Source: Massalongia carnosa
Lineage: Eukaryota
Length of the DNA stretch: 64,000 nucleotides
Reading direction: 5' to 3'
NCBI GenBank assembly: GCA_965645245.1
Contig: OZ287087.1
Coordinates: forward strand, 868,001 to 932,000
Within the stretch, counting starts at the first letter, position 1. The number at the start of each line of letters is the position of its first letter. Of the stretch, positions 1 through 52,885 are shown piece by piece. Under the pieces are notes generated by a model. It searched no databases. It was given only the letters and a program-made list of their open reading frames with translations, and had not been told where the DNA came from. A program made the translations under genes and the position numbers.

Positions 1-3000
1 AATAGACCCAGAAAGCTGGGAAGTGGAATACCCGTCAAAGGATATGAGCACATTGAAAATAAAAGTAAAAATCGGAAACGGAACAAAAATGATTCACATA
101 CACAACGTATACAATCCATCGCCCTTATCCACTTCCTCGATAACTAGCCCGTCCACCCTATCGACCGTATTACACCAATTACAAGACCTCGGAGAGCATA
201 TTCTTCTAGGAGACTTCAATCTCCATCACCCATACTGGGGTGGAGCAGGGGTACGAGGACAGCACGAGGCGTCCGAACAACTGCTGGACATTATAGAAAA
301 CAAAAATCTCTCTCTCACACTTCCAAGAGGAACAATTACATGGGAAGCAAGAAACTCGACCAGCACCTTTGATCTGGTGTTCATGACAGAAGATTTAACG
401 GAGAGATTGGAACACTGCACCACGGTCCCGGAGATGAATCAAGATTCCGATCACATACCGATTTCAACGAGACTGCGGCTCTCCTGCGAACCCCTGACAA
501 AGCTCCCTCGAAGGGCCTGGAAACTTCTAAACATGGACAAGGTAAAAGAAATCGAGAAAAGAACCCCCGCACCACGCATGCCGCACAGCATCGAGGAAAT
601 CGATCAATATACCAAGGAAATCCAGGATTACCTCAAGGAAATCGTAGATAAAGCAGTACCATAGGCCAGACCAAGCCCGGAGGCGAAACCCTTTTGGAAT
701 AAGGAATGCGACGACGCAACAAGAGAGACTCGTAGGCTACGAAGAATCTGGACCGCGGAAAGAAACCTAGCGGATTAGAAAAACTACGTTAAAGCAAACG
801 ATAAGAAACAAAAATTATCGGTAAAGCAAAAAATCTCTGCTTCAAACAGCAAATAGCCACAATCACAACTTCCCAATCCGGACTCTTCCGTCTAGCAAAG
901 TGGGGTAAAAACAAAAGTGACGCCCCCAGAGAAATCCCAAAAATGCCCCCCCTGGCCACAACCCAGGACCCTGATACGATAGCCAATACCTTCGAAGAGA
1001 AAGCGAAAATGCTAAAGAAACCTTTCTTCCCCCTATCCCCGGACGCAGATCTCAGCGACATCGTAGGATACACGTACCCGCAAACCCCAGACTGCCCCAT
1101 CCTGATCACGAAAGAAGAATTGGCGGCAGCGCTTCGTAGGTCGAAACCAGACAAGGCACCCGGTCCGGACGGGATCACAAATAGAATTCTCAAGGCATGC
1201 TCGGAAAATCTGATCAAGTTGCTGACACCACTGTTCCAGGCCTGCGCAGAGCAGGGTTATCATCCTCGAGCGTTCAAAACCGCCAACACCATCACGCTGA
1301 AGAAACCAGGAAAGAGTAATTACGCGGATCCTAAGGCGTGGAGACCCATTGCGCTCCTAAACACGCTTGGAAAAATGCTAGAATCCATTATAGCAAGGAA
1401 AATAAGCTATTTAACGGAAAAATTCAGATTAATTCCAGACACGCAAATGGGAGCAAGACCAGGCCGCGCAACGGACACAGCGCTCGAACTGCTCATGGAG
1501 CAGGTACACACAGTCTGGAATCAAGGGAAAGACAAAGTAGCATCGCTTCTTAGTATCGACGTCTCAGGCGCCTTCGATACGGTTTCACATCGTAGGCTCA
1601 TTCATAATCTGAGAAAGAGAAACTTTCCGGAATGGATCACGAAATGGACAGAAAGCTTCCTCAAGGAAAGAGAAACCACTCTCACTATCAATCAACGAAC
1701 AACCAACGCATTCCAGCTGAATATAGGAATTCCGCAAGGATCTCCTTTGTCTCCCATTCTATATCTCTTTTATAATGCAGACTTACTCGATATTTGCAAT
1801 AGACCAGGTACCAACGCAGCGGGCATGGGTTTCGTAGACGACGTCAATATTCTGGCGTACGGAAAGTCCACCGAAGAGAATTGCAAAACGCTGGAAAAAA
1901 TACACAACGACTGCGAACGATGGGCCGCTCGCCACGGCTCCGTATTCGCGCCACACAAATACGAGCTGATACACCTGGCAAAGAATCCAAAGAAATTCAA
2001 CCTGGACGCATCCTTCGCGGTAAGAGGCAAGATCCTGAAGACCAAGACTTCGATAAGAGTCCTGGGAGTATACATTGACACTAGACTCGATTGGGCAGCG
2101 CATTACAAGGAAATTCAGAAGAAAATGACGAGACAAACAATGGAACTGACCAAAATCGCAGCCTCAACCTGGGGGGCGACCCTCCTACGAGCCCGCCACG
2201 TGTACACAGCAGTGATACGCCCCGCCATGTCGCACGGCTCGATAGCATGGCACATGCCAGCCGAAGCAAGAAAGAAAGCCAAAGTCGAATCAAGAAGCAA
2301 ACTCGAAGTCATACAAAACAAGTGTTTACGAGTCATAGCCGGATCGTACAAGGCTACCCCAATTGAAATATTACAGGCAGAAACCCACATCCCTCCCTTA
2401 ACGCAACATCTAGACCGCTTACAAGCAAAAACGAGATCCAGAATCTCGAACAGCGAACAGGAAAAAATTATAAAGCAGGCGTGCAATAGAATTCAAGTGA
2501 AACTCAGAGGTAAAAGAGGTCAATCGCGAGTCGCAGAGGAAATACCGGGAACTCGTAAACGAGAATGGGTAACAAAGATGACGAAAGACGCACCGAAAAC
2601 AGTTAAACTGGATCAACCCTCTCCCCCTCCCTGGACAACGATCGACGAGGCACAGAAGAGACAACGCACAGCGCAAGTAACGACGCAGAACCAACGAGAC
2701 GGGATAATAAAGAAGCACTTTGAGAATCAGTGGATCAACAAGTGGAAAGCATATCAAGCAAAACACACGTTATATCCCACGATCGCACAACAGGCGCCTA
2801 TACACAGGAAAAAGCTTAACGCACACAAGTTACTAGACAAAGCGCAAAGCTCACTAGCAACACAGATAAGAACGGAAAAAATCGGACTAGCCAACTTTCT
2901 ATATCGGCGCAAGGTCCCAGGTGTGAACTCGGCGGCATGTCCCTGCGGAAGCCTCTTACAGCCAAACATGTAATCATGTTCTGCAGACTGCACGAACACA

Positions 3001-3366
3001 GAACGCACATGCTACGAACGGCAGGCTCGTTAGACTACCGCAAGCTAATCACCGAACCCAAAGCTCTCAAAGTAGTAACCGCGTGGCTCATGCGCACAGG
3101 TATTTTAACACAGTATTCCATTGCCACGCAACTGCTTGAACAGCAGCCGGGCAGTCTCTCTTCAGTTTGAAAAACAGGTATCGCAGATTTTCGAGATACA
3201 GGAATCAATCCGCGGGAGCGGCGAACCCCCGATGAAGCGGATACGCAGGAGTAGTTTTTCACCTTTGGGTTTTCTACTTATTACATAGCTTATATAGCAT
3301 CTCCCGAATGGGCCGGCCTTCGGCCGGTGACACAACGGCGTAAGAATAATCAAATCAAATCAATCA
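1..3366 (+). mobile_element. Tad1-like LINE, 3' part (ORF2: APE endonuclease, RT, C-terminal zinc motif), inactivated; 5' end outside window
   Basis: ORFs carry HNVYNP, LLGDFNLHHP, SDHIP (APE) and PGPDG, WRPIALLN, GIPQGSPLSP, FVDD (RT). Stops at 662 and 776, frameshifts near 820 and 2960. 3' hairpin at 3312-3328 and TCAAA-repeat tail at about 3346-3366. Confidence 0.95.
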
Positions 3367-4193: not shown

Positions 4194-4501
4194 TGTTATG
4201 GAACTGGTTTGGTTCCTGGAATCGAGATCGAACGCCTTAGCGCTGTGCCAAGCATCGGGACCTTCGGAGGCCTATCTTACACCACATGTCTAGCTATCTA
4301 AGTATCCTTACCTAGTCAGCAAAAGAACTTTCCATGCATGGTAGGCCCTGGTAGAAGGAGATTGCGATGGAAAGGATCGAGGCATAGGGGTAAAGGGTGT
4401 TAGTTGTATATAGTCTCTCAGGTGCTTCATGGTTTTTGGTCCTCGTCGGACGTCTTGTATATACATCCCAAGTATCTAGTTTATATGACCAATCCCTGAC
4501 A
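4194..4501 (+). repeat. 5' LTR of Gypsy element 1
   Basis: Direct repeat of 11683-11992, differing by a few transitions and 1-nt indels; TATATA at 4407-4412. Confidence 0.95.
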
Positions 4502-4515
4502 TTACGTCCGACCAA

Positions 4516-5704
4516 TCGTGGTACTGAGGTGGCAACAAGGTGGCTGGGTCGACGTCTTTTTGTCTACGATAGGCCTCAAGTTCTTCTTGAGTGACTGAAG
4601 TTTCCAGGGTGAGTTCTCTACTCATCGTGGATATGGCTAAGTGGATTTCCTTTTCACTAAGGCTTGCTCCAGGATTAAGCGGTGGGAATGCTTGGAGATG
4701 TACCTTGAGGTTGACTGCAGTCGACCTCGAGGAAGGAATACTAGGGCTGGGTGATGCTTCTATTCCTAAGAAGCTGTCGATTTCTCGGATTGAGATATTA
4801 AATATCTCATGGTCTTTTTGGCGGGCTAGGTGATCAAAGGTGATGGCACTTATACCAAAAACCTCCAAAGGTTTGGGAGGCTTGATGTGAGTCGCGGATT
4901 TGTGCGCACTCTCCTGGGGAGCTGGGCGTAGGCGGACATAGCTGCGGGCTCGCTGTCGCATTCTGGGAATGATTCCTTTCCGAATAGCCATGTCTATGCG
5001 GCTGGGACGATCTTCACTTTCTGGGTCCAAGACTAGCGGACTAGGCTGACTAGACTGCAGAGATTTCTTTTGATCTTCAGTTTGCCAAATGGCACGATTT
5101 TCAACGGTCCGTAAGAATTTTTCCTCCTTGTCGGTGATGGAACGCACCATGACAGGAGAAGGTCAACAATGAGCTAGGCAGAAAGAGGAAGACAAAGACG
5201 AGGTGTTATTCGAGAAATTGGCGATTGCACCGTGTCGTCGCAGCCAAGGATGACCTAAAATGATAGGATAGTGTCGCAATCCCGTAACATATAAGAAAAG
5301 CTTTTCTACGTGACCGTTTAGGTCCATAGTTACTTCAGCGACATGGTTTATGCTTCCTATTAAAGCAGGTCGTCCATCAAAGGCTCGAAGGAGTCTAGGT
5401 TTCTAAAGGGGATGCAGAAGTAGGTTGTGGGTTTGCGCAAAGGTTTTATCAATGAAGGAATATGCCGAAGCACCACTGTCAACAAGAGCAAGAGTTTTCA
5501 TCCTAGCCTGAGAACGGCGTAGTATACATGGGACGACCATATGGCCGTCTCTGAAAATCTCGTCGGACTCAAATAATTCCAACGCTGGTTTTACAGAGAA
5601 CCTGGTGCTGGACCTAAGAGAGGGAAAGACAGGGGAAGACATGATACCACAAGAGATTATTAAATCCTTTTCAGGTCCCTGCACGCGACTATGCGCAGGG
5701 ACTA
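4516..5704 (-). pseudogene. pol: Inverted 5' part of Gypsy pol (aspartic protease and spacer)
   Basis: ALVDSGASAYSFID protease motif and DVDPATLLPPQYH, collinear with pol at 58461-59780; in-frame stops. Confidence 0.9.
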
Positions 5705-5777
5705 GGCTGGCAACGAGGACCACCTGTACGCGGTGCCGGCTACGAACCTTCTGCTTGCCAGAAGAGCCAAGTGTCTC
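5705..5777 (+). ncRNA. Predicted HDV-like self-cleaving ribozyme
   Basis: P1 GGCTGGC/GCCGGCT, P3 ACC/GGT, L3 TGTACGC, P1.1 GT/AC, P4 CTTCTG/CAGAAG, J4/2 GCCAA, imperfect P2 GAGGACC/GTGTCTC; located at the first base of the insert. Confidence 0.7.
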
Positions 5778-6987
5778 TCTCCCTTCGGTGACGGGTGGGT
5801 GTCGGAGGTGAATCGGGGGGTGGGTGAGCACTCCGTGCGGTTTCACCAAAGCACACACATCGCGACGAAAGTTGAGTATCGAAAGAACGAACCACAAACG
5901 CCATAGTTCTCGAGGTGTTTTCTGAAGGACACAGTCATAGGAGGAGTAGCTCCTAATCTGGGGGTCGAGGAAGAGTCGAACTGCCACAAACGCGAAAGGG
6001 GTGACGCCCGACAGTCCTCGTACCCGTACGGGGGCCGACACGTTTACGATTCGACTACGAAGCGATTTACCGGGTGGAAAACAGAGTTTTCGGTCACACC
6101 AAAGAGCACGAGAGTATTGCTCCCATCGAAGTAAGAGCTTGGGAAGGCGGACGAGTCGGCACAGCCTCGAGGGGTCCTCGGAGGGAGCACATGGGAAGGC
6201 GGGCGAGTCGGTACAGCCTGAAAAGGAATAATGAGGCATAAGGAACTCCCGTTGGGGCTCGTTTGTGACGGCTATGTCACCGACGACCTCACCGCGGCCG
6301 GTGTACGTATATGACTTCAGGAATAGTCCTTGCTACTCTACAAGCTTGGTGCCCTAGTTCTTTTCGAAGAACGGTCAAACTACGACACGGTATTGAGGCC
6401 TGGTGGAAGGTGCACTTCTCTACCTTATTATTCTCGGAAAGGCCTCTGACCCATGGTTTTCGAGGTGGATGCAACGAGGTCATCTGACCCATGACTTATA
6501 ACGAAGGCGTATGCACATTCGGTCGACTTGAAGGGATAGAGGTGACGACATCGACACGTACGAGCAGCGATAGGCATGTCGAGGGCGATAGACACACAAA
6601 AACAGTCAAAAGTGGGAAGCAGGAATACATCTGGATTTGATTTCGATCTACTGGATGACCCGGCTCGGAGGGGATACGGGGGTCTTCCGCTGAGTCCCCG
6701 CTGGATAACGATTCGAGATCAAAACGACCAAGGCTCAAAAAAGTCCCTACCCTGACCATAGTGCGCGATTCATCGTGCCATTTCTTTTTCTTTCTGGTCA
6801 TGCAGTCCGCATAGACGTCCGAATCCGTTCCGGCCCCTAGGAGTCGGTGATGGAGTGTTGAAACACAGGGTTTTTGTCACCTCGTAAGGTTTTTTCACCC
6901 CTGTATATAGCCCCATAGATGTGCCCGCATGGGCCGTCCTTCGGACGGTGCCACATCGGAGAATGAATTATCATCATCATCATCATC
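5705..6987 (+). mobile_element. Non-autonomous non-LTR retroposon (SINE-like): ribozyme-like head, LINE-type 3' end
   Basis: 14-bp TSD ATGCGCAGGGACTA (5691-5704, 6988-7001), (ATC)n tail 6970-6987, 3' hairpin shared with the LINE ends at 3312 and 37434, no recognisable ORF. Confidence 0.85.
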
Positions 6988-6998
6988 ATGCGCAGGGA

Positions 6999-8415
6999 CT
7001 AGGCTTTTTCCGCATTGGCTGGAATTTCGTCATATAAGACGAGAGCGCGGACTTCAGAGGGTTTGTTGCCCTTGTTGGGGCAGTTGATGGCAGTTTTGCC
7101 AGGATGTTGAAGCTTGCAATAATAGCACAACTGCCAGTCATTACAAACTTTTCTAACCGCAGGGGCCTTGAGGCTCTGGCCTTTGACGAAGGCCAATGCT
7201 TGGGTCAGGTCCATAGGGTCTCCGGCAGGGAGATCCACGGCGACGGGGGGAAGAGCGGGGACGGAAGCGGAGGGGGCCCCTGTGATGAGGGCCGTGGAAT
7301 ATGCAAGCTTGGCCGAGGGGGCGCTCGGCGCCATAGGGTTGCCTCGACGCTGGCCGGCGGCTGCACTGGTGGTTGTGGAGACAGAAGCAAGGGCGACACT
7401 TTTAGGATATCGATGCTTAATTTGACGGAGCTTCCAATCTGTACTGGACCACATTTCCACATGATCCTGGAAGGTGACGGGCTCCGATCCGTCAGGTTTT
7501 CTCCAAGCTATTGCGGCCGCTTGGGTGGCATAATTTGTTGGAATACTCGCTTAGCCCCATTAGCTCTAGCTCAGCCCTGCAGGCTGCCATGACTGCTATA
7601 AGCAGTCACCTCCGTAGTAATTTCAACATTATGCCGTCAACTGTTTATTTAACATAATTGACGTTAGACCGCATGGCGTCTATGAGAGATGCATTCTCCA
7701 TGCCGGAACGTTCCTTCTTTTGGGCGAAGAGGTTGTAGTACTCCTCGAAACTCATCGTACCTTGCTTGAGGGTTTCTCTCAAGTAGATACGGGAATCTTC
7801 CTCCTCGAATCTGTTGCCACAGGTCTCTCGAAGTATACGGCGCCAGTCCATGAAAGAGGTCAGGATGCAGAGGCCCTCTACTCAATACCGGTTCATAAGG
7901 TTATGAGCTTTCTTTCCGATGGTTAGTCGAGACTTGGCATAGGTTATCTTTTCCCTCTCGGAGGGATATCGGTCCTGGTTGACATCCATCCATTGAATAA
8001 GGCTCTGTTCCCAGGCGTCCAGCTTAGCCATATCGCCGTCATATTCGGCGATGTCTAGTAATTTTTCCGACTTAGATGCCTTAGGCTCCGAGGCTTGGGG
8101 CAAGGCGGCGAGAACGGCGGCGGTGATGGAGGCGATGATCTGGGGGTCAATCGCCGAAGCAGAAAGGACGGAGAATACGGGCGTGAGAGAGGTAGCTGGC
8201 GGCGGAGGAGGAGGAACAAGGGGAGGCGATTGCTGTTGCGACAGCAGGCGAATCGTGTCATGCAGGGCAGAGATTTGGCTCTGAATTTTGTTAATTTCCT
8301 GTAAGAAAGGCAAGAGGGTTGTTTTGTGCTTCTTGCACCAGGGTAGCGGCTTGTTTTGCCTCAATGGCAGCAGAGGGAGATGTTGGAGTGATATCTTCCA
8401 TAGGTGATTCATCCA
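6999..8415 (-). pseudogene. gag: Inverted Gypsy gag, frameshifted and interrupted by a solo LTR
   Basis: SEKLLDIAEYDG...LDAWEQSLIQ, GDPMDL and LCYYCKLQHPGKTAINCP match gag at 57301-58443. Confidence 0.9.
7536..7654 (+). repeat. 119-bp solo LTR (TGTT...AACA) inserted in the inverted gag
   Basis: Perfect 5-bp TSD TAATT (7531-7535, 7655-7659); removing it restores gag NVNYATQAAA; TATAAG near 7597. Strand inferred from the TATA box. Confidence 0.8.
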
Positions 8416-8492
8416 TTGAATCGGACATTGCTGACTTAATTGACGGGGTTTTTCAACCAGCAGAGCGAAGGCGAAGACTTGAGAGAAGTGCT

Positions 8493-11400
8493 ATGTCTTT
8501 TCAAAAAAAGACTCTAACATCCTGCCCAAGCACCGACCTTACGATCATGCCATAAAACTAAAAGAAGGTTTCCATCCACCCAATCAGGCTCTTTATGGTA
8601 TGAGTCGCGATGAGATCCTTGAACTCCGCCGTTATCTAGACGACAATCTAACCAAAGGCTTCATTCGAGCCAGCAGTTCTCATGCCGCATCGCCTGTCAT
8701 GTTCGTCAAGAAACCTGGAGGAGGACTCCGCTTTTGTGTAGATTATCGAGGACTAAATGCAGTCACCATCAAGAACCGTTACCCTCTGCCCCTGATTGCC
8801 GAAACCCTGAACCGGCTGTCCAAAGCTAAGATTTTTACGAAATTAGACATCATAGCAGCGTTCAACCGCCTAAGAATCAGAGAAGGTGACGAAGAACTCA
8901 CCGCATTTAGAACTCGATTTGGTCTTTTCGAGTATCTCGTCATGCCCTTCGGTTTATGTAATGGCCCTGCCTCGTTTCAGCATTACATCAATGACACTCT
9001 TAGGGAATACCTGGACAACTTCTGCACCGCGTATCTATATGACATTTTGATCTACAGTGAATTCGAGGCCGAGCACGAGATTCATGTAAAACGTATTCTC
9101 ACAAAGCTCCGAGAGGCCGGTCTGCAAGTAGATATCACCAAATGCGCGTTTCATGTCACCGAAGTCCCCTACCTAGGCTTGACGGTGACCACTAAAGGCA
9201 TCAAGATGGATCCAGCCAAGATCGAGACGGTCGTCAATTGGCCAACGCCTAAGACCATGAAAGATGTTCAAAGCTTCCTTGGTTTTGCAAATTTTTATCG
9301 TCGTTTCATTCTAGGGTTCAGTAAAATCGCCGAGCCGTTGACCAAGCTTACTAAAAAGGATACCAAGTTCGTCTGGAGCGAGAAATGCCAGCAAGCCTTC
9401 GACTTCATGAAGGGAGCATTCACTTCCGATATGGTCCTACTGCATTTTGACCCAGACATGGAAATCATATTCGAGACTGACGCCTCCGACTATGTCTCTG
9501 CAGGAATCTTGTCCCAGTATGACCCCGAAGGCGCCCGTCGCATACATTTCCAAAAAGCACAACCCAGCCGAGTGTAATTACGAAATCTATGACAAAGAAC
9601 TCATGGTCATCGTCCGAGCTTTCGAGGTGTGGAGACCTGAACTAGAAGGATCCGCTCTCCCTATCAAGGTTATTTCCGACCATAAGAATTTAGAATACTT
9701 CGCCTCCACCAAGCAACTTAGCCGTCGCCAGACGCGCTGGAGCGAATTTCTGTCTAGATTTGACTATAAGATAGTCTACCGGCCAGGGAAAGCTGGTGGG
9801 AAACCTGACGCATTGACCCGAAGGTCAGGAGACCTCCCTCAGGAGGGGGATAGCTCTGATGAAAGACATCAATTTCAGCATCAGACGATCCTCAAAGCCC
9901 ATAACCTAGACGAAAATGTAGCGCAGAGCTTCAATCTAGACGATTCACTCATGTTAGCCCCAGCTTCTTTGGACCAAGAACACGAGCTCGACGCCGAGTC
10001 CGACGCTGAACCGAATGACGACCTAAATCCCAATGAACCTCAGTTAGACTTAGACTCGGATCAAGTCGCACCAGATCAAGACCCTATGGATGTAGCTACA
10101 CAGCATTTATGGAACCTAGCCCAGGACCGAGACCAGTTTGCCCCCAGAATCCTAGATATGCTCGCCAATGGTGCTCGATACCATAGCGGCATCCAACTAG
10201 CAGAGTGCGAAGATAGAGACGGATCTCTATATTTCAGGAATCGAAAGTACGTACCCAAGTCCGATAGACTAAGATTGAGGATCCTCCAGTTGGCCCACGA
10301 CAGCGTCGCAGGTGGCCACCCCGGCCGGGCAAAATGCCATGAATTGGTAAATCGAGCCTATTGGTGGCCCAACATGCATAAGACCGTCTAGAGATTCGTG
10401 CGTAATTGCCATGTGTGCAAGCGATCTAAGCCATCCCGCCAACGATATCAAGGCTGGTTACGTCCCTTGCCCCCACCCGAACGCCGATGGCGCGATGTTT
10501 CCATGGACTATGTCGGTCCCTTGTCGGCAAGCACCTTTATGGGGGTTACCTATCGATACGTCCTAGTCTTTGTTGACCGTCTCACCAAGATGCGTCACCT
10601 AGTCCCGGTCACCTCCATGGAAGTCGAGGAAGCGGCGAACGTGTTCTATCAAAGCGTGTGGAAACTGCACGGCCTACCAGATGTTTTAATATCTGATCGA
10701 GGAAGCCAATTCGTGTCGGAGTTATGGAAGATGTTTTGCAAACGATTGAGAATCGATGCTCGTCTGTCCACCGGTTATCACTTAGAAATAGATGGCCAAA
10801 CCGAGCGAGTCAACGCGGTCATGGAACATTACCTAAGAGCTTATGTTAATTACATGCAGGATGACTGGGCTCAATGGTTGCCTGGTGCAGAATTTGCTGC
10901 CAATGACACCGATTCCTCCAGTATTCTAGCATCACCGTTCTTGGCCAACTCGGGTCAACTTCCTCGTATGGGTTTCGAACCTGAGGAACCCTTGCCTCAA
11001 AACATCACCGCGCAGTTCCGTGCCAATCTAGTCTCGGCCAACGCCTTCGCCGATCGTATGCAGGAAATGGAAAGTCATCTACGAGATGAAATGCTCGTCG
11101 CTCAAGCCACGTATGAATCCACCGCCAATTCCAACCGTCGTCCCTGCCCTCGCCATACCGTAGGAGATATGGTCTGGCTGAATACCAGAAATATCCAAAC
11201 CGCTAGATCTACAGTCAAATTAGTCGACAGGAACATAGGACCATACCGCGTTAATCGAATCTTCTCAAATCCTCTAGTAGTGCAACTAGAACTCCCTAAA
11301 TCCGTAAAAACCCATCCAGTCTTCCATGTTAACCTATTGCAGCATGCTGCTAACGACCCACTGCCTGGTCAACACCCAGAACCCAGAGACCCTGTCATCG

Positions 11401-11669
11401 CTGAGGACGGCCAAAGAGAATGGTTTGTCAATAGCATCCTAAATTCCAAGTATGACCGACGTCATCAACCACACCTGCTCAAGTACCTTGTCGATTGGGA
11501 AGGATATTCCGCCACTTGGGAACCCTTGCATCTCATAACCAATTGCCAACAGGCACTAGATGATTATCATCTAGCTCACCCGAATGCCGCTGGCCCTCAC
11601 GTCACCCCTTGCACTATCCCTCGCTGTGCCAATGTCAGGACTAGCCGCTTCGCAGGAGCTCGCCCTTAG
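8493..11669 (+). pseudogene. pol: Gypsy pol RT-RNase H-integrase-chromodomain, disabled
   Basis: [19 protein letters not shown] (YLDD mutated), ETDASD, HPG..C..C zinc finger, SDRG, YLVDWEG; frameshifts near 8550 and 9530, stop at 10389. Confidence 0.93.
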
Positions 11670-11682
11670 AAGGGGGAGCTAC

Positions 11683-11992
11683 TGTTATGGAATTGGTTTG
11701 ATTCCTAGAATCGAGATCAGAACGCCTTAGCGCTGTGCCAAGCATCAGAACCTTCGGAGGCCTATCTTACACCACATGTCTAGCTATCTAAGTATCCTTA
11801 CCTAGTCAGCAAAAGAACTTTCCATGCATGGTAGGCCCTGGTAGAAGGAGATTGCGATGGAAAGGATCGAGGCATAGGGGTAAAAGGGTGTTAGTTGTAT
11901 ATAGTCTCTCAGGTGCTTCATGGTTTTTGGTCCTCGTCGGACGTCTTGTATATACATCCCAAGTATCTAGTTTATATGACCAATCCCTGACA
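11683..11992 (+). repeat. 3' LTR of Gypsy element 1
   Basis: Follows the PPT; TGTTATGG...CCTGACA. Confidence 0.95.
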
Positions 11993-12059
11993 GTAGATAG
12001 AACAATCATACCTTCTAATATTCGTGTCAGGTATTAAGGTGATCAATTGTGACCCCAAT

Positions 12060-12814: not shown

Positions 12815-15800
12815 TCATGACTCAACCGAATTTATAACTAAATCAGAACACAGTCTTTGCGAAATTTTAAACCCGTACTTTCCCTCTTCAAAAATTGAAC
12901 GGCCCTCACTTTCCATCAAGGTACGATCAACAGCTTGACTCGCTCGAAATATCTGCTCGATCTCATCCACTTCGTGAAACTTCCTCTGATCTCGAAGTAC
13001 CGAACCAAGGTTCCTCATACTTCTCTGTGTGTGCGGATTATTAGGACCAAATATTTTTAGCCGGGTTTGCAAAGCTCTGCGATGATATTGTTCGCTCTCT
13101 TCTGGACGCTTGAGGTGTCGAAGGACAATGCCAAGCATATTAACACATGTTAGTGTCTGAGGATTGTCTCCTCCTAATCGCGTCTCCCTAACAGTAAGAC
13201 CTGTCCGGCTGATAGTCTCACTTTCCCTGAATGCTTGCATTGCCAATAAAATATTGCCCATCTCATTGTGGCGTAAGCCAATCTCCTTCAGAGTGGCAGC
13301 CAGATAGTCCATTGTCAGCACAGCCTCCAGGCTATTCTCGCCAAAGACCCGGTTCTTCTTGATCAGCGTCGTACGTGAAAGGGCTTCCGCCTCTTCGAAG
13401 AGACCTTGCTCTGCCAACGTGTTGGCTAGCCCATCCTCGGATAGAAGGGTATCTGGGTGATTGATGCCCAGTAGTGCCCTCCGAAATAGTAAAGATTGTT
13501 CGTGGAGACGTCTACTTTCGTCATGGTTTCCCATTCGAGTCAGGACAGAGGCAAGCAGAACATGGAATTTAAAGTCACTTGATATTGTTCCCCCAGGGTC
13601 CGTATGCGGCCGTCCAAGACTTCACGGTGCAGTACCGCAGATTGTGTCCATTCCCCGCGATAATGTAATAATTGAGCGAGCTGAAATTTTGTCTCTAAAG
13701 TCTCGGGATGATCTGCACCAAAATCCATTGTTCTCCGCTGAACAACTTCTTCGAGGCGCAAGCGGAAGCAGTCAACAACCAAAGCGAGACGAGGGTCCTG
13801 AAAAACGCAATTTCCAATCCAGTCGTTTAGGAGTTTCTGCGAAACGAGCAGATTGCTAACTGAAAAACCAGCATTGTTAACGGCGACGCACCGCTCTATA
13901 TAAGCCAGCAGCTGATCAGATTGGAGGAACAAATGCAAACGGCGTAACAGATCCATTGTTGGTGCTCCAGACTGAGCCAAATGTCGAACCCAGAACATCG
14001 CGGCATATTCGAGAAGATCGGAAGAAGGGTTCGTAGGGGCTGGGCAAGAAGCAATGATTTTAGATCTGTCCTTCCACTCTTTAAAGTTCAGATATGTGAT
14101 ACAGATGCTGCCTAAGTGTTGATTTGCTTCTGATTTGACAACGCGGAACTTTGCGACTGGAATCTGCTGAGAGCTGCAGGGCTCTTCAGAGACTAGTAGG
14201 TACTCCTTGACAGTAAGATGTACAAAACTTACGACGCGTTCAGCACGGTCCTCGCTAGGCTCGGAGATCTTTACAAGCGACCCAAAAATATCTTCCAAAA
14301 AACCTGTCAGATCCAAAACTCGATCATCAGGATCGATCTCTGAGGCTCCTGGCCGAATAGCTAGAGCTGTGGCTAGCTCTGATACTGTTAAGTGCCGCTC
14401 TGCACATGCAAGCCAATTAAGCAGAAGTTGAGCCGTCCTTTGCCGTCGATGGTTTTCCGCCAGCAGCTTCTCCAAGATCCGACCATAGAGTTGACTCAGA
14501 CCGCGAGGGACGTTGTTCAAAATCTGATTGATTTCAGAGAGACAGGTTGCTTTCTCGAGTGACTCAACCATCAGTCGCGTCCACAGGAACTGTCCGTCTG
14601 CCTTCGATATTAGTGCTTGTGTGATTCGATGACTCATAGTGTTATCTAGGAAATTGGAAAGTGGAGATCTCTGAACCACTTTCCGTATGTATAGAGTCAT
14701 GTCTTGCTCGATCACGTTCGAAGTAATCTCAAGTGAAGACCACGTCGATAGTGCAATGCGAAGCCATGGCTCACTCCGACTAAAAACCGATAGATGAAAT
14801 TGATGGTTGGCGGATAATTCAGCAAGTTGCTGCAGCAAAGTAGACTCACGGCCACTCTCGCACTCATCCAATGCATCAATGATAACAAATATCGGATGAG
14901 AGCGATGCGTGATCATTGCCTTGAAGAGATCTAGTAGTTCTAAGAAGGATGTAGATTTTTCCTGGCCACTTTTTATGATAACCTCACGAGCCAATTGTAC
15001 AAGATCGGTGTTTCCAGCTACGAGCTGCGCAATAAGTGACCGCAAAACCCCAATAGGGGTTCTCTTCGCTGGATCTCCTTCGTCGCAGAAGAAATATATG
15101 ACTGAGATTGATACTTGCTGTGCTTTCATGTGTGCGACTAGAGAAGAGCTGAGCATGCTTTTCCCACACCTAAAATTCCGTTCAACATATACATAACATT
15201 TGTCGCAAAGGGAATGAAAGGATGGCTCACCCTGGTATACCTTTAACCCATAGTAATTTTTGAGTTCCGCTTGACCAAGCTTTCACCTCTGGTCTCATGA
15301 AGAACCATGTGCCGGTGCCTTCTGCTCGCGCTCGCTGAAGGTTCTCAAAGCGATCCTTAGTATCGGCAGGACCGAGCCATTTGATGACCTCCAGACATTC
15401 TAAAAGTTCTTGATGCGAGTTTTGTCGACGTCTTGCAGATTTAGATTCCTCGATATGACAAAAATTGGCTTCGAGATCAACGAGATTTTTGTGCTTCTCT
15501 AAGTTAACAATGATTCTATCTGATTTTGCTTCAAAATCGCTCCAGAGAATCTTTTTAAACAAAAGAAAGCCTAGGCAATGATTGTAAGCCTTAATATTAG
15601 CAGAATAGAGAAGCATAACCGACTCTTCTTGCAAAAGAAAGTAGTCGCAAGAATGCAGAAGTCTATAACATCGGCGTACACTGCAGCGAGCATTTCGCAA
15701 AGCTTTGTGCTGTCCGAAAAGATGTCGACGACTTGCTGTATCCTAGGCAAATGATCACCGAGATCGTTGATAACCTGGGAGAATTTATCGAGGTAATTGA

Positions 15801-35225: not shown

Positions 35226-37406
35226 ATCGTGCTAAAATATTAAACCCTGTTATGATCTACCTAGAGACAAGTCATAGGGACACTAGAAACGAATAAAATA
35301 AAGATGAAGAAGGAAAAAGACTATCGACAACCAGAACCTGCTCCTATATATGCTCTACTGCGCTAGTACCCATATGGTATAGTCGTCATGGAATCTTCTA
35401 GTAGCTGCGGGAACGAAATCGAAAGTGCCTGCATGTTCCATCTAATATTACCCTAGGCGGTGCCGAGTGCCGAGGTCGTGCCGTGTAGAATCGTGACAAA
35501 CCCCAACCGAGTCAGGGTCTAGAGCCCGACGGTCTACTGACGCATACAGTCTGCTGATGCACTTTTCCCATTTTCACTACCATTTTCACTACGTCGTTCC
35601 TTTACCACCACAATACCTAACTCATATTCTAATAAGGAGGATCAAATTGTCGATCCTATAAACGAGTGGAATACGGGTGAATTTCGAAGTATACGCGCAG
35701 TAGCTATTGAATTCGATGTCGACATTCGTACGCTTCAAAGACGACTTGCTGGAGGGGGTTCGCGCATCGGTCGATCTGGCCCCAACAAGGCCTTATCTGA
35801 TGAACAAGAATTGGCCCTTTGTGAATATATTGTGATGCACGATCAAGCCGAACAATCAGTTTTCAATTGTTCGGGGGGCTGCCAATTATCTACTTCGAGA
35901 AGCTCATTTAGACGCCTCCGTCCCCCCCCCTCATGTCAGCGAAGCCTGAACCAAACGTTTCCTCAATCGTCATCCTTAATTTTTCAACCGAAAACAAAAA
36001 CCTCTGGACGCTGAGCGAAAACACGCGCACAATGCAAAGGACATGCTCGAGTATTTTGAAGCATGTCGAACTGCGCGAAAGACGCGGGGAATAGCGGACG
36101 AGGACGTTTGGAACATGGATAAAACGGGCTTCCGAATTGGCTGTGGCAGGGCTCATTGGGTTATATCAACTTACTCCAGAAAGCCCTTGCTATTGAAAGA
36201 TCTAGATAGTAGAGAATATGTCACCTCATGTGAGTTTGTTAGTGCTGGGGGGCGAAATATTCCCCCTACGGTGATTATCGCGGGGGTTTTGATTCTCCAA
36301 AAGTAGACACAACAAAACGATCTGAATAACGATGTTTGTTGACTACTAGTCCTGCCGGCTATTCCAGTGACGATTTGGCTATTGATTTGTTGAAATATTT
36401 CGATAAACATAGTCGAAAGGGTCAGGTAGGGGCCTGGCGTATATTGATCATAGACGGGTATGGATCTCATATGACGTATAAGTTTTTTACATATACCAAA
36501 CGAAATCAGATTGAATTGTTTCGTTTGCCTCCTCATACAACACATCTCACTCAGCCATTGGATATAGGATGTTTTCAGCCGTTCAAATATTATCATTCCG
36601 AAGACATTGACGAAATGGTGCACTCGGAGGGGCAGATTTCGACAAACTAGATTTTTTCTTCATTTTTCAGCGCATGCGAAATCAAACATTCACCTCATCT
36701 ACCATATTATCGTCATTCAGAAACACGGGTCTGGTGCCTTATAACCCCAATATGGTAATTCGAAAGTTGGAGGCAATTCAAACTCGGAGACCTGCTACCC
36801 CGCCCCCACCTTTGTCAGCACTGCTCGCCAGAACACCCCGTACGACTAAAGAGGTAGTTGAATATGGCTTACACCTTCGAATGAGTTTGAAGAAATACAA
36901 CGTGCTAGATAATAAAGGGGATTGTAATATGAATCGATTTGTGAAGGGCTCTATTTCCAATGCGCATACACGTTAGATTATCGAGCGGAACCTTTGAGCC
37001 AGTCAACAACAGTCCATCTCGAAGGCAGCTCGTAGAAAATTGTATGGAAAGGTCGCCCAGAAGGGAGGGGTTATAAATGTAGGAGATGTACGGGCTATAA
37101 CCTCGAAACGTTGTCAGAACGAGGTGGAAAAGACCAGACTAGCTTATGAACGTGGGATACTAGCTGCTGAAAAGAAGCAGATTGCCCTAGACAAAAGGTA
37201 TAAAAGAATCGCCAGATCGATACCCAGACAAGCGAAGCTATTTTACCAGCGTCATAATCAATCAGTTTTTCCATAACCGTTGTTGTCCTCGATTTGTAGC
37301 AGAAATAGTAGTGAAAATAGGAAAAGTGCGTCAGTAGACTATATGCGTCAGTAGACCGTGGGGCACTAGACCCTGACTCGGTTGGGGTTTAGTGTTTTGG
37401 CACGAT
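35226..37406 (+). mobile_element. Full-length pogo/Fot1-like DNA transposon with pseudogenised DDE transposase (about 35612-37276)
   Basis: TA TSD, long TIRs ATCGTGCCAAAACACTAAACCCC..., motifs WNMDKTGF, ILIIDGYGSH, TQPLDIGCF; frameshifts and stops. Confidence 0.92.
35248..35498. repeat. 251-bp solo LTR inserted in the left TIR of the pogo element
   Basis: TGTTATGAT...ATCGTGACA, perfect TSD AACCC. Confidence 0.88.
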
Positions 37407-37573
37407 TAGTTATATAAAACCACGCCCGCATGGGCCGGCCTTCGGCCGGTAACATGTCGGTGTAAGAATTTATCATCATCATTATCATCGTCTTGTTTCG
37501 ATAAATTGAATAATTCGACAGATTTAATTTAATCCTTTACGCGACGTAAAGACAAAATTATTTATAATACGAA

Positions 37574-44573: not shown

Positions 44574-47500
44574 TGTTAAAACGGGCAACCGATGCCAAAT
44601 ACCGAAACTAGCTGACAAAGCAATTTGCATCTACCTCGGCAAGGAATGGCCTGTGGCGGTGGCAAATTTGCATGGAGTCAGAAATCGCATCGGAAGAAAC
44701 AGCCGGTGAGATGGGAATGGAGGCTTCTGGAATGACTGGTGGACGGGGCATAAATAGGAGCAGTTTTACTCTACGTAGTGGTAGATAGTCAATCGTTTCT
44801 CCCAGTTTGTTTTGCATGTGCAAGAACTCGTTTGTCGAACTAGTCATATCAATTGCCCAGTGCTACCATTCCGCCTGTTGCAGTCACAGTTCCAACAGGT
44901 TATGGGCCCGGTCAGCTAGACTGAGTGATTGATTTGTTCCACCAAACCCCCACCCCAGAAACGATTCCGATGGAGTCCACCCCAGAGAGCACCACTGGGG
45001 GCCGTGAAGGTCGGGCGACCGAGTCGCCGTTCACTACCATCGAAAGGGAGGGCGGCAGGTCGATGTCGCCCGGTGGTGTCAGAAATAGGCAACCACCTCA
45101 GGTGTTGGATAACACCTACCTGAAGGGTCTCTTGAAGGGAGACATAAAAGTTACCAAGCTGAACAGGGACAACTATCAATCTTGGGCCAGGAACATGAGA
45201 ATATCCCTCGACGCCAAGCTGCTATGGGACCTGGTGAAGGGGACCATACCAGAACCTGATGTAAGGATCAGACCGAACGACCACCGGGCATGGTGGATCG
45301 ACAACAACCACGCCAAGATGTGGATCAACAACAACTTGGAAGAAGATCAACAGACACACTGCAGTGAGGAGGAGAGATACGCCCACAATATCTGGATGAC
45401 GTTATACAAAGTACACGGGGTGGATAGTCAGGGTCGAATGATGATGCTGAAAAGAAAATTTTACACGTACAAGGCCAGAACGGATGAGACCATTGACGAA
45501 ATAGCTAGCGAACTAACCCGAATCCGGTTACTTATTCGGAACATTCGATCATCCGAGGCACCTAGTGATTTTGATGTTGCTATGTGTTTAATGAACGCGG
45601 TCGACCACGAACAGTATGAGTTCGTTAAACTACACCTCGAGGAAGATAACAACCTCACTCTCGAATACGCAAAGCAGCGACTAAGAACGGTCGAGCAAAA
45701 ACTCGTTGATAAGGGACAAAAGGAAATTGCTAACAAGGTTCTCACCACTTTGCATGGTTTGTGTTTTCACTGTCACAAGCCCGGGCATTTCAAGACCGAG
45801 TGCCCTGAATGGCTGAAGACTGACGCTGGAAAATCGTTCAGCAAGAGAAAAGCAAAAGAAGGTAGCAAAGAAGGTGAAGAAGGGACCAAGGCAAATAAGT
45901 CCGAAAACGGCAGCGGAGCACCCCCTCGGAAAAAGCCCGGAAAGACAAAGCATAGGCGGAAGGGAAATGCTCGACAGGCTCAAGAAGAGCAGGAAAATGA
46001 GGCCTCGGAGTCGGAAGATGACGAAGAGATAGGCTTCATGATAAAGGAATGGAACGGGAGGAGTGAAGAAATCCTGAAGACAGAGGTCTCGGAAGAAATC
46101 CTGGAGACAGTGGTCTCGGACGAAAACCTGGAGACGGTGGTCTCGGATAAGGCCAGGAAGGCGGACATCTTCATTAAAACTCCTCGGGGTGACAGAGATT
46201 TGGGCAGGTGGATTATCGACTCAGGAGCGAGTCGGCACATGACGCCCGACAGGAAACTGTTCACCAAGTTCCGGAATATGCTAACCAGTGTCACCATTGC
46301 AGATGGGACAAAGCTATCGTCGCCCGGAAGGGGTGACATCAGTGTGGACCTTGGAGGAAAGAAGGTCCGGATGGAAAATGTTCTGTGGGTACCTCGGCTT
46401 GATTCGAATTTGCTGTCCATAAAGGCTCTGAATCGGAAAGGGCTCAGCATTCTTTTCCGCCCAGAGGGGGTGGAAATCACCAGAGACGGTACCTCGGTCG
46501 CCACCGGTTTCTTTAAGGGCAACATGTTTCTACTCCGAAACTCGGAAGTTGCATTGGAAACTGGAGTGCAGGAAGACCAGGAAGAACAGAAAGAACAGGA
46601 AGAACAGGAAGTTCCGCAGGAAGTCCAGACAAGGGAATTGGTCGGGACTCAGCGAAGCGAGCCAAGGGCAGGGCCAAGTAAGTCGAAGTCAGAACAGGGC
46701 AAAATAAGCGCATATTTACTCTGGCACTCTCGACTGGGGCACGTCAGCGCTCGAAGAATTCAACTTTTGTCCAAGAAAATTCCGGAAGCAGGGAAAGCAA
46801 TAGACATTGAAGGCACCCCTTTATCATTTTTTGACAAGGTGGAGTGCTCAGTCTGTAATTATACTAAGATGACTAGGGCCGTTTACCGCGTACCCCCTCG
46901 CCGAGTTGATAGGAAACTAGGGAGGGCATATAGCGATGTCTGGGGGCCATATCGAATAACTAGCCTAAATGGCTACCGATACTTCATCAATTTTGTGGAC
47001 GAGTTCACCAGGAAATCGTGGTTGGAGCTCATGAAAAGTCGAAAGGAAGTTCAGGGAAAAGTACTAGAGTGGAAGAAGGTGGCAGAAGTGGATTCAGGTG
47101 AAACTCTCGCCAAGCTACGAACTGACAATGCAAAGGAGTTCGAGCACATGGCGAATAACCTCAGAAAGGAAGGGGTCGTTATGGAATTTACTACCCCACA
47201 CACACCGGAAGAAAACGGCATGGCCGAACGATTAAATCGAACCATCATTCAGATGGCTCGAGCTATGCTACATTGGGCCGAACTACCGAAGACCTTTTGG
47301 GGGGAAGCAGCTAAGACAGCAAACTACCTCCGAAACGTGCTTCCATTGGCCAATAATCAGCCTTCACCAGATGAACAATGGTATGGTTATGCACCTGTCA
47401 TCGACCACATTCGAACCTTTGGGTGTTTAGTGCATGCGCACGTACCAAGTGCCAGCAGAGCTAAACTAGATCGGGTATCGTTCCAGGGGATTTTCGTTGG

Positions 47501-51744: not shown

Positions 51745-52885
51745 ATTGTCAAAAACAAAATCGCTACTAGAAAATTGATACTAGGTCAGCTAGATGACGA
51801 AATTATCGAAACGGGAGGTTAGGGAGAGATCGAACGGTAAATCAGGAATTGTGTTTATGCTGAAACATTTACGAACTTTACAAAGACAAACTATAAAATC
51901 GAAAATTCGATTACTATATGTTGTTACTAACACGGAGTAAAATCGGGGCAAAATTAAAGATTCATAGATAGGTTACAAAATGTTAATTTATCTATATTAT
52001 AGAAAAATATCCTAAAATAGTTTAGTATCATAAGATTAGGTTAAAGAAACTTAATAAATAAATTATTAAAAAATCCGATTTTTAAACAATTGTAAAATTG
52101 ACTGCCTTAGGTCCGAATGCTTTTTAGGATTTAACAAATTAACCGCATTTTACAACTCGTTTTCGGTCAAATCCGGCCAATTATCGTAATCTTCGTTGTC
52201 TTGATTCGATAAATTATCGAAATTATCGTCTATAAATGAGTTTTTGTGTAAATTGTTGCCACAAATGCATTACATTTGTCATTAAATGGAACATTTAACT
52301 TGTTCTCATAATGAATCAGTGGTATTTTTTCGAATATGCGAGGTTTGATGTATTTATACGCGGTAAATACCTCTTTATTCATTGCATTTTCTAGAAAAGT
52401 CAACTAAGTTTGTTGTTTTACTTTTCGAATTGAATAAAAATATTCGATCCGACTTTATTTAAACGTTCGATAACTAAAATCGGACGGATAATTCTTCCAT
52501 TCTCGACGATGTCTAGAAATTATTTTTCGAAGTTCGATTGAATCTTTCGACCACAAATTTTTTGATTTTGCATATGTTTTGTTCTTCGGAATAAATAATT
52601 CAGCTGCGTCTTTAATAATGTCTTGCGATAATGTTTAAACTGTGCTGTACCTCGGGATTGCGACTTATCCGAAAATGATCAACACACTCGCACAAAACCG
52701 CGAAAAACGCAAGAAGGAGCAGGCGGAGAAGATAAAGCTCTTAGGAGCAAAGATAGATGAGTACTTAAAGCCCGGTAACAGCCTAGGAGACCCGGTGGCG
52801 CAAACTCTGTTGAAGGAGGTTAAAGCCACGTTGCAAGCCCAGCTTCATATTAATTCGGAAAACGAAGATACCCTCACGGTAGCAT

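What the first reader, a model, noticed from the sequence alone, without database searches (positions are those of the whole stretch)
5705..5777. HDV-like ribozyme fold with atypical compensated P1.1 (GU/AC instead of CC/GG)
Seen, in HDV order: P1 GGCUGGC 5705-5711 / GCCGGCU 5735-5741 (7 bp, G1-U wobble); 3-nt J1/2; P3 ACC/GGU; 7-nt L3 UGUACGC; AC at 5742-5743 complementary to L3 GU; P4 CUUCUG/CAGAAG; J4/2 GCCAA with candidate catalytic C5767. Established: genomic HDV has P1 GGCCGGC/GCCGGCU and J4/2 GCGAA; the antigenomic ribozyme has ACC-UCCUCGC-GGU and GCUAA. The L3 first U and sixth G are kept here. A double compensatory swap in P1.1 would cause motif searches requiring CC/GG to miss it. 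Weakness: P2 (GAGGACC/GUGUCUC) pairs only partly, so this copy may be decayed.
Basis: partly seen in the sequence, partly recalled or inferred. Interest (0 to 1): 0.85.

Follow-up and report, generated by a model that had tools for sequence, protein, structure and literature searches.

The report
Self-cutting RNA heading a fungal retroposon
The 73-base stretch is very probably a hepatitis-delta-type self-cutting RNA that forms the first bases of a small, non-coding jumping element in a fungus, a known way for such elements to trim their own RNA, here with an unusual spelling of one tiny helix.

Summary
The pairings are in the sequence exactly as described. The fold alone is weak evidence. A loose descriptor finds 3 such folds in the window against 1.3 per shuffled window, and the fold is no more stable than shuffles.

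G5705 is the first base of a ~1.28 kb non-LTR retroposon (5705-6987). The element is flanked by an exact 18-bp target-site duplication and ends in (ATC)6. Its 3' stem-loop is shared with a LINE in the same window. It sits in the gag/pol frameshift site of a Ty3/gypsy element.

Public contigs show other copies that start at the same G. They also show a second, otherwise unrelated element family carrying only this module, with J4/2 unchanged, L4 diverged and a perfect P2.

A stricter descriptor with the conserved core bases hits 5705 only, and hits nothing in 312 shuffles. On the short stretch the best Rfam match is HDV_ribozyme, full length and in the same register, but far below threshold.

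Verdict: a probable HDV-like 5'-processing ribozyme of a fungal SIDE-type retroposon. It is a new member of a known kind. Cleavage is untested.

The parts
5705..5779 (+). Candidate HDV-like ribozyme. P1 5705-5711/5735-5741; J1/2 5712-5714; P2 5715-5721/5771-5777 (5 of 7 pairs) or 5715-5720/5773-5779 (6 WC pairs and a bulge); P3 5722-5724/5732-5734; L3 5725-5731; P1.1 5726-5727/5742-5743; P4 5748-5753/5759-5764; J4/2 5765-5770 with candidate catalytic C5767. Predicted cut between A5704 and G5705.
   Evidence: Sequence; strict descriptor: 1 hit in the window, 0 in 312 shuffles; RF00094 19.6 bits and RF02682 12.4 bits, both full length in this register; alternative P2.
5705..6987 (+). Non-autonomous non-LTR retroposon (SIDE-like), about 1283 nt, with no long + strand ORF. 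Its 5' end is the ribozyme and its 3' end is a LINE-type stem-loop plus an (ATC)6 tail.
   Evidence: Absent from the intact relative Ty3 element and from empty-site contigs. Summed contig depth inside is about 3 times that of the flank. No + strand ORF of 100 aa or more. No tRNA.
5691..5708 (.). Target-site duplication, left copy (ATGCGCAGGGACTAGGCT). Its last 4 bases, GGCT, are also the first 4 bases of P1, so the duplication is either 18 bp or 14 bp plus a 4-nt junction microhomology.
   Evidence: Exact 18 of 18 identity with 6988-7005. Contigs with unrelated flanks join at 5705.
6988..7005 (.). Target-site duplication, right copy.
6926..6987 (+). 3' recognition module of the retroposon: a stem-loop (GGGCCGTCC-TTCG-GACGG core) followed by an (ATC)6 tail at 6970-6987.
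   Evidence: Same motif at 3306-3327 and 37428-37449. 12 predicted pairs, 1 of them with a compensatory change (G-C to U-A).
2..3364 (+). LINE (APE-type endonuclease, then RT; 5' part beyond the window). Its 3' end, 3231-3352, is 70.5% identical to 6849-6973 of the retroposon. It is a candidate autonomous partner family.
   Evidence: Pfam Exo_endo_phos_2 and RVT_1; blastn; sequence.
37424..37489 (+). Short 3' fragment of the same retroposon or LINE 3' module (83% identity over 66 nt).
4230..11995 (+). Host Ty3/gypsy element with LTRs at 4230-4504 and 11720-11995. Its segment from about 4505 to 8494 (gag-PR and the start of RT) is inverted. The retroposon lies in the gag stop / frameshift hairpin, antisense to gag-pol.

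Best explanation
Bases 5705-5777/5779 (+) encode an HDV-like (nested double-pseudoknot) self-cleaving ribozyme. It is the 5' terminal module of a ~1.28 kb non-coding non-LTR retroposon of the SIDE type: a 5' ribozyme plus a LINE 3' end.

Inferred mechanism:
1. The element has no recognised promoter of its own and is transcribed as part of longer read-through RNAs.
2. The ribozyme cuts 5' of G5705, using C5767 in J4/2 as the catalytic base. This gives the RNA a defined 5' end.
3. The 3' stem-loop with its (AUC)n tail is bound by the reverse transcriptase of a related LINE.
4. That enzyme copies the RNA into a new site by target-primed reverse transcription, leaving a 14-18 bp duplication.

P1.1 is formed by G5726-C5743 and U5727-A5742 instead of two C-G pairs.

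Shown here: the pairings, the insertion anatomy, the shared 5' boundary, and the module shared by two element families. Inferred: cleavage, co-transcription, and the partner LINE.
For: (1) All helices are present in HDV order. Also present are the core bases fixed in a published descriptor (PMC6326823, passages read): the G1.Y closing pair, U...CG in L3, and a C in J4/2 followed by N-A-A.

(2) The strict descriptor gives 1 hit in the window, at 5705. It gives 0 full hits in 312 shuffles.

(3) On 5695-5800, 2 of the 4 Rfam matches are HDV families. RF00094 scores 19.6 bits (E 0.37) and RF02682 scores 12.4 bits (E 2.7).

(4) The stretch starts a TSD-flanked insert: an exact 18-bp repeat, an (ATC)6 tail, and a LINE-type 3' stem-loop. 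The empty site is seen in the relative Ty3 element at 58431-58470.

(5) In public contigs, 2 contigs each in runs X4 and X5 match from 5705 on and have unrelated sequence before it.

(6) A diverged family matches only about 5721-5753 (up to 5770 in one contig).
- Before 5721 it reads ...GGCCAGCAAGAGAT.
- Behind 5753 it reads TTAATCAGGAGAGCCAACGATCTCAC...
- So J4/2 AGCCAA is unchanged in 6 of 6 bases, and L4 differs at 4 of 5.
- The P4 3' strand has one A-to-G change that keeps a U.G pair.
- P2 becomes a perfect GAGATC/GATCTC.
- Sequence beyond P2 is unrelated.

(7) Variants within the family at 5758 (in L4) and 5763 (A>G, giving U.G in P4) do not break the structure.

(8) The junction microhomology fits what is described for R2 elements that cleave at their own 5' end (PMC3774820, abstract and passages read).
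Against: - No cleavage assay exists and no RNA data are available.
- The Rfam scores are far below gathering (19.6 against 50; 12.4 against 44). They appear only when 106 bases are searched. There is no HDV match in the whole-window scan or the 501-base scan.
- The fold is not more stable than shuffles, although MFE folding ignores pseudoknots.
- P1.1 lacks both canonical C-G pairs.
- In the diverged family the P1 5' strand differs at positions 4 and 5 (C and A instead of U and G). The matching 3' strand was not shown by the tool, so P1 covariation is unverified and could fail.
- The strict descriptor was written post hoc.
- The runs may come from the organism the window was assembled from, so the copies are paralogues within a few genomes and not independent lineages.
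- GGCT at 5705-5708 could instead belong to the duplication.
Confidence: 0.72

Rival explanations
1. The stretch is the 5' end of the retroposon but is not catalytic. The 5' end is set by transcription initiation from an internal promoter, and the HDV-like pairing is a chance or degenerate resemblance. The conservation of the first ~70 nt between families reflects a promoter or a protein-binding module.
For: Sub-threshold Rfam scores. Non-canonical P1.1 and imperfect P2. No excess stability. The first 77 nt of L1Tc are reported to act as an internal promoter as well as a ribozyme (PMC3383444, abstract in search listing), so 5' conservation has more than one possible cause.
Against: A promoter does not predict conserved J4/2 together with a variable L4, a P4 change that keeps a wobble pair, and a P2 that re-pairs perfectly in the second family. 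The strict descriptor gave 0 full hits in 312 shuffles.
Confidence: 0.2
2. It is a pure chance motif on the antisense strand of a Ty3/gypsy gag-pol region, unrelated to any element boundary.
For: The loose descriptor finds about 1.3 such folds per shuffled window, and 3 in the real window, including 6662 and 8261. The stretch lies inside a 309-codon stop-free frame on the minus strand.
Against: The stretch is absent from the intact relative Ty3 element and from empty-site contigs. It starts an insert with an exact 18-bp TSD. The long stop-free run is reached by 24 of 1000 shuffles of the insert, and Pfam finds nothing in it.
Confidence: 0.04
3. The structure works on the other strand, as part of the Ty3/gypsy gag-pol frameshift signal.
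For: A strong hairpin at 5676-5703 directly abuts the candidate. In the relative element it follows the gag stop and a GGGAAAA heptamer.
Against: That hairpin belongs to the Ty3 element and lies outside the candidate. The candidate itself is insert sequence that intact Ty3 copies lack. The minus-strand fold has z = -0.26.
Confidence: 0.02

Closest known systems
SIDEs of R2 and R2/R1 in Drosophila (Eickbush and Eickbush 2012, PMC3414825; abstract and passages read)
   Same: Short, internally deleted, non-coding non-LTR elements. They consist of an HDV-like ribozyme at the 5' end and the 3' end of an autonomous element, and are mobilised in trans. In the hybrid SIDEs, identity to the donor is confined to the ribozyme module, as seen here between the two families.
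   Different: Those elements sit in rDNA and are cut out of 28S co-transcripts. This one is dispersed, found inside an LTR retrotransposon in a fungus. Its autonomous partner and its 5' donor are not identified.
HDV-like ribozymes at the 5' ends of non-LTR retrotransposons (R2, R4/Dong, RTE, Baggins, L1Tc/NARTc/ingi; PMC6765202, PMC3185411, PMC3774820, PMC4035085; passages read)
   Same: The ribozyme occupies the first ~70-80 nt of the element and the cleavage site is the element's 5' end. Upstream sequences vary and downstream sequences are conserved. P2 mismatches are common in R2. P1.1 varies in number and kind of pairs in trypanosomatid elements.
   Different: The hosts described in the passages I read are animals and trypanosomatids. 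Here the host is fungal. P1.1 is G-C plus U-A.
Fungal HDV ribozyme variants (Li and Breaker 2017, PMC5640933; section 7 and Table S1 row read; alignment files could not be opened)
   Same: HDV-class ribozymes in ascomycete fungi that standard descriptors missed. An extra C between P2 and P3 is also present here if the shifted P2 register is used.
   Different: Those typically have a C-G pair at the cleavage site and a loop E in P4. This one has G.U and a plain 6-bp P4 hairpin. Those are described with 'widely variable gene associations', not as retroposon heads.
HDV ribozyme (Rfam RF00094) and the F. prausnitzii HDV-like ribozyme (RF02682)
   Same: Full-length alignment to both models in one register. 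J4/2 AGCCAA aligns to GGCuAA of the model consensus. The RF02682 consensus has L3 UCUaCGU followed by AG after P1, which is a U-A pair in P1.1 like the one here.
   Different: Scores are far below gathering. The other P1.1 pair is flipped (G-C instead of C-G).

Membership tests
HDV-like self-cleaving ribozymes | Five helices in the order P1-P2-P3-(L3)-P3'-P1'-P1.1'-P4-J4/2-P2', forming a nested double pseudoknot | tested here: met
   All are present at the stated coordinates. My descriptor finds the fold. P2 is imperfect in one register and 6 WC pairs with a bulge in another.
HDV-like self-cleaving ribozymes | G1.Y closing pair at the cleavage site; U and C-G of L3 (the reverse-wobble U/G); catalytic C in J4/2 followed by purine-rich or A-A bases (descriptor in PMC6326823) | tested here: met
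   G5705.U5741; L3 U5725, C5729, G5730; C5767-C-A-A. The base after C is a pyrimidine, as in the 'GGCuAA' consensus of RF00094.
HDV-like self-cleaving ribozymes | P1.1 made of two C-G pairs (C of L3 with G after P1) | tested here: not met
   Here it is G5726-C5743 and U5727-A5742. Pairing is kept but base identity is not. P1.1 composition is known to vary (PMC4035085 passage; RF02682 consensus).
HDV-like self-cleaving ribozymes | Match to a curated covariance model at gathering score | tested here: not met
   0 matches at gathering in the window. RF00094 scores 19.6 against 50 and RF02682 12.4 against 44, on 106 bases only.
HDV-like self-cleaving ribozymes | Helices supported by covariation among homologues | tested here: inconclusive
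   Only consensus ends of a diverged family were visible. P2 re-pairs perfectly and a P4 change keeps a wobble pair. The P1 5' strand changes at 2 positions, but its partner strand was not shown.
HDV-like self-cleaving ribozymes | Site-specific Mg2+-dependent self-cleavage 5' of G1, giving a 5'-OH | not testable with these tools
   No RNA holder was listed among the public runs. This needs a bench assay.
Non-LTR retroposon, non-autonomous (SIDE/SINE-like) | Target-site duplication, a simple-repeat or A-rich 3' tail, and an empty site in related DNA | tested here: met
   Exact 18-bp TSD, (ATC)6 tail, and an empty site in the relative Ty3 element and in contigs.
Non-LTR retroposon, non-autonomous (SIDE/SINE-like) | 3' end shared with an autonomous LINE; no RT of its own; several copies | tested here: met
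   70.5% identity over 129 nt to a LINE 3' end, with a conserved stem-loop. No + strand ORF of 100 aa or more and no Pfam hit in the minus-strand frame. Summed contig depth about 3 times the flank, and variant contigs exist.
Non-LTR retroposon, non-autonomous (SIDE/SINE-like) | tRNA, 5S or 7SL-derived pol III head (true SINE) | tested here: not met
   ARAGORN finds 0 genes in 5500-7100. There are no such Rfam matches. Hence 'SIDE-like' and not SINE.
Fungal HDV ribozyme variants of Li and Breaker 2017 | C-G at the cleavage site; loop E replacing part of P4; an extra nucleotide (usually C) between P2 and P3 | tested here: not met
   G.U at the cleavage site and a regular 6-bp P4. The extra C5721 appears only in the shifted P2 register. 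Their alignment files could not be read.

The most novel reading that the evidence does not exclude
A working HDV-class ribozyme whose P1.1 contains no C-G pair in the canonical orientation (G-C plus U-A). It would serve as a portable 5'-processing cassette exchanged between at least two otherwise unrelated non-LTR element families of a lichen-associated ascomycete. If so, ribozyme-headed LINE/SIDE systems exist in fungi, and searches that fix CC/GG in P1.1 systematically miss a branch of the family.
Probability: 0.45. Interest if true: 0.55.

Novelty: new member of a known kind. Interest (0 to 1): 0.42.

Why it matters
HDV-like ribozymes at the heads of non-LTR retrotransposons are well documented in animals and trypanosomatids. 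In what I could read, fungal HDV-class ribozymes are described without a link to retroposons. This locus would tie the two together.

It also gives a natural test of how much sequence freedom P1.1 has. And it shows that a ribozyme call that is weak on its own can be judged from insertion anatomy: the duplication, the empty site and the shared 5' boundary.

It changes no principle of ribozyme or transposon biology.

Tried and rejected
- **Rfam at gathering, whole window:** 0 matches.
- **Rfam at E up to 10 on 5500-6000:** 5 matches, none an HDV family.
- **Whole genome of the window:** not held, so genomic copies could not be aligned.
- **Copies inside the window:** the 39-nt core has 1 match at up to 3 mismatches, which is itself. 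The diverged-family motif has 0 matches. A relaxed fold scan of 50.5-53.2 kb, upstream of the second LINE, gave only AT-rich chance hits.
- **Metagenome scan** with a degenerate 19-nt J4/2-P2 pattern: 38 loci, and 0 of 38 resemble the ribozyme upstream of the match.
- **Viral contig scan** with the P3-L3-P1' core: 0 matches.
- **Sequencing runs:** 9 listed and 5 holders from 3 studies, with no RNA holder listed. Nothing can therefore be said on expression or on RNA ends.
- **Read laying:** it showed only 40 of 95 variant rows and 24 of 43 loose ends. The central part of the diverged family, including the P1 3' strand, stayed unseen.
- **Earlier findings of this scan:** none for this genome or this sequence.
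- **tRNA-derived SINE head:** rejected.
- **Coding on the minus strand of the insert:** rejected as evidence. The 209-codon stop-free run is reached by 24 of 1000 shuffles, and Pfam finds nothing.
- **Other descriptor hits:** those at 6662(+), 8261(+) and 30220(-) are taken as chance.
- **Li and Breaker alignment files (.sto):** could not be opened.
- **Webb and Luptak 2011 review:** not held.
- **One literature search** returned nothing useful.

Full report
**The observation**

- P1 is GGCTGGC paired with GCCGGCT: 7 pairs, two of them wobbles.
- A 3-nt J1/2 follows.
- P3 is ACC/GGT around a 7-nt L3, TGTACGC.
- AC after P1 is complementary to the G and T at L3 positions 2 and 3.
- P4 is a 6-bp hairpin.
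- J4/2 is AGCCAA.
- P2 pairs at 5 of 7 positions.

A shifted P2, 5715-5720 with 5773-5779, gives 6 Watson-Crick pairs with one bulged U at -6.7 kcal/mol. It leaves C5721 between P2 and P3.

**Chance**

Taken as a bare fold, the pattern is not significant.
- My loose descriptor found 7 core hits and 3 full hits in the window. The means in 15 dinucleotide shuffles were 3.7 and 1.33.
- Requiring a P4 of at least 6 bp left 1 hit against 0.07 per shuffle.
- The nested fold is no more stable than shuffles: z = 0.11, and 107 of 200 shuffles fold at least as well. The other strand gives z = -0.26.

I then added the bases that a published descriptor fixes (PMC6326823, passages read): the G1.Y pair, U and G of L3, and C-N-A-A ahead of P2. 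The window then keeps one full hit, at 5705. In 312 shuffles there were 7 core hits in total and 0 full hits. I wrote that descriptor after seeing the candidate, so it overstates the case somewhat.

**Rfam**

- Nothing reaches gathering in the window.
- A 501-base permissive scan gave 5 weak matches, none from an HDV family.
- On 106 bases the best of 4 matches is RF00094 HDV_ribozyme: 19.6 bits, E 0.37, gathering 50. RF02682, the F. prausnitzii HDV ribozyme, is third: 12.4 bits, E 2.7, gathering 44.

This is directional support, not membership by score.

**What surrounds it**

The window is eukaryotic and looks fungal. It holds a NACHT/TPR NLR-type gene, Ty3/gypsy elements with chromodomains, a copia element and LINEs.

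Direct repeats at 4230-4504 and 11720-11995 are the LTRs of a Ty3/gypsy element. Its gag, protease and RT start are read on the minus strand between about 8494 and 4505. The rest of pol is read on the plus strand from about 8495. So that segment is inverted.

An intact relative lies at about 57223-62888. In it, gag ends ...GGGAAAAGCCTAG and is followed directly by a hairpin. Pol opens in the -1 frame there.

**The insertion**

In the first element the 18 bases ATGCGCAGGGACTAGGCT (plus strand) occur twice, at 5691-5708 and at 6988-7005. The two copies are identical.
- Joining the flanks rebuilds the gag stop and hairpin of the relative element.
- Between the repeats lie about 1.28 kb that end, on the plus strand, in (ATC)6.
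- The last ~125 nt are 70.5% identical to the 3' end of a LINE at 2-3364, which has an endonuclease and an RT, and 83% identical to a short fragment at 37424-37489.
- All three share a stem-loop with a UUCG-type loop. It has 12 predicted pairs, one of them with a G-C to U-A compensatory change.
- The insert has no plus-strand ORF of 100 aa or more and no tRNA-like head.
- The 209-codon open frame on its minus strand is matched by 24 of 1000 shuffles and has no Pfam hit.

It is therefore a non-autonomous non-LTR retroposon in plus orientation. The candidate ribozyme is its first 73-75 bases.

A chance fold, at about 1.3 per 128,000 positions, would fall within a few bases of this boundary with a probability of about 1 in 10,000.

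**Where the element starts**

GGCT at 5705-5708 lies inside the 18-bp repeat. Either the element starts at 5709 and P1 borrows four flank bases, or it starts at G5705 and the junction has a 4-nt microhomology.

Public contigs decide for the second.
- In runs X4 and X5, two contigs each match from 5705 onward with unrelated sequence before it.
- Contigs that stop matching behind 5708 and go on TTTCCC... are uninterrupted Ty3 copies, that is, empty sites.
- Junction microhomologies are what is described for R2 elements whose ribozyme cuts at the element's own 5' end (PMC3774820, abstract and passages read).
- Summed contig depth inside the insert is about three times that of the Ty3 flank, for example 1227-2172 against 452 in X2. 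It is far higher at the shared 3' end.

These depths are sums over contigs, not copy numbers. The runs may include the very sample the window was assembled from.

**A second family with the same module**

Further contigs in all four runs match only the core.
- Before 5721 they read ...GGCCAGCAAGAGAT.
- Behind 5753 they read TTAATCAGGAGAGCCAACGATCTCAC... (TTGAT... in X1). After that there is nothing alike for some 250 bases.
- One 14.4-kb contig aligns over 5721-5770 with 7 differences. By my count 5 of them fall in 5754-5762, so about 2 fall in the core.

Read against the fold:
- J4/2 AGCCAA is unchanged, 6 of 6.
- L4 differs at 4 of 5 positions.
- The P4 3' strand has one A-to-G change that keeps a U.G pair.
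- P2 becomes a perfect 6-bp GAGATC/GATCTC.
- Upstream of the first G of GGCCAGC the consensus differs between runs.

Conserved catalytic strand, free loop, re-paired helix, a shared 5' boundary and unrelated sequence beyond: this is what a ribozyme cassette predicts. It is not obviously what a promoter predicts.

The gap is P1. Its 5' strand differs at positions 4 and 5, and the tool did not show the partner strand. Within the window's own family, the two visible variants in the ribozyme (5758 in L4; 5763 A>G, giving U.G in P4) are structure-neutral. Contigs are otherwise identical over 5728-5907 apart from one extra C behind 5780. So this copy is not a decayed one.

**Comparison with what is known**

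- HDV-like ribozymes occupy the first tens of bases of R2, R4/Dong, RTE, Baggins and L1Tc/ingi elements and of their non-autonomous derivatives. They free the element RNA from co-transcripts (PMC6765202, PMC3185411, PMC4035085, PMC3774820; passages read).
- The closest analogue is the SIDE: a 5' ribozyme plus the 3' end of an autonomous element. In hybrid SIDEs, identity to the donor is confined to the ribozyme (PMC3414825, abstract and passages read).
- About a third of R2 ribozymes have P2 mismatches (PMC3774820).
- P1.1 varies in number and kind of pairs in trypanosomatid ribozymes. Their authors judged the original search descriptor too restrictive (PMC4035085).
- The RF02682 consensus printed already has a U-A pair in P1.1. 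Only the flipped G-C pair seems unusual.
- That canonical pairing, and not base identity, is what P1.1 needs is my recollection of older mutational work. I did not check it here.
- Fungal HDV-class ribozymes are known: 230 representatives in 26 species, plus 11 conventional ones (Li and Breaker 2017, PMC5640933, section 7 read). They typically have C-G at the cleavage site and a loop E in P4, which this one lacks. They are not described there as retroposon heads. I could not open their alignment files.
- An unpublished HDV-like fold in Penicillium is mentioned in PMC3185411.

**Verdict**

This is most likely (about 0.7) a genuine HDV-like 5'-processing ribozyme of a fungal SIDE-type retroposon. 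It is a new member of a known kind with a variant P1.1.

The main rival (about 0.2) is a conserved but non-catalytic 5' module. Pure chance and a Ty3 frameshift element are largely excluded by the insertion anatomy.

Nothing here shows cleavage. The bench assay and a full alignment of genomic copies are the deciding steps.

Noticed in passing
window 4505-8494 within 4230-11995: The Ty3/gypsy element has its 5' internal segment (leader, gag, protease, start of RT) inverted relative to its LTRs and the rest of pol. One breakpoint is at the LTR edge. The other is inside the RT: ...QYHDWSDV is read on the minus strand and FSKKDSN... on the plus strand. This could be a real inversion or an assembly error.
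   Followed up: partly
window 58425-58470 (and the rebuilt site 5676-5708 + 7001-7012): The gag/pol junction of the intact Ty3/gypsy relative looks like a classical -1 frameshift signal: a GGGAAAA heptamer, the gag stop, then a strong hairpin, with pol open in the -1 frame. The retroposon inserted exactly into this signal in the other copy.
   Followed up: partly
window 6926-6960, 3305-3340, 37427-37462: A conserved 3' stem-loop with a UUCG-type loop is followed by short-repeat tails: (ATC)n or (ATCAA)n. It is shared by a LINE, the retroposon and a 3' fragment, with one compensatory pair. It is probably the RT recognition element of a stringent-type LINE.
   Followed up: partly
window about 52600-57200 and 63000-64000: A second LINE (ORF1-like frames, endonuclease, RT; 65.6% identical to the first LINE over 2 kb) is split by the intact Ty3/gypsy element. 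No HDV-like fold was found upstream of it.
   Followed up: partly
window 44925-49316 (+): An apparently intact copia-type polyprotein frame of 1463 aa (gag, integrase, RVT_2).
   Followed up: no
window 13540-15156 (-): A fungal NLR-like gene piece (NPHP3_N/NACHT, winged helix, TPR).
   Followed up: no
window 36100-36650 (+): Sequence that reads like a pogo/Tc5-type DDE transposase fragment. I judged this by eye and did not search it. It lies upstream of the short retroposon 3' fragment.
   Followed up: no
window 5780: All other contigs of four public runs carry one more C behind 5780 than the window does. This is either a private deletion in this copy or a homopolymer error.
   Followed up: no
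window 5705-5768 (+): A weak Rfam match to a trypanosomatid H/ACA snoRNA model (RF01552, 16.3 bits, E 0.59-2.8) overlaps the candidate. I took it as chance.
   Followed up: no
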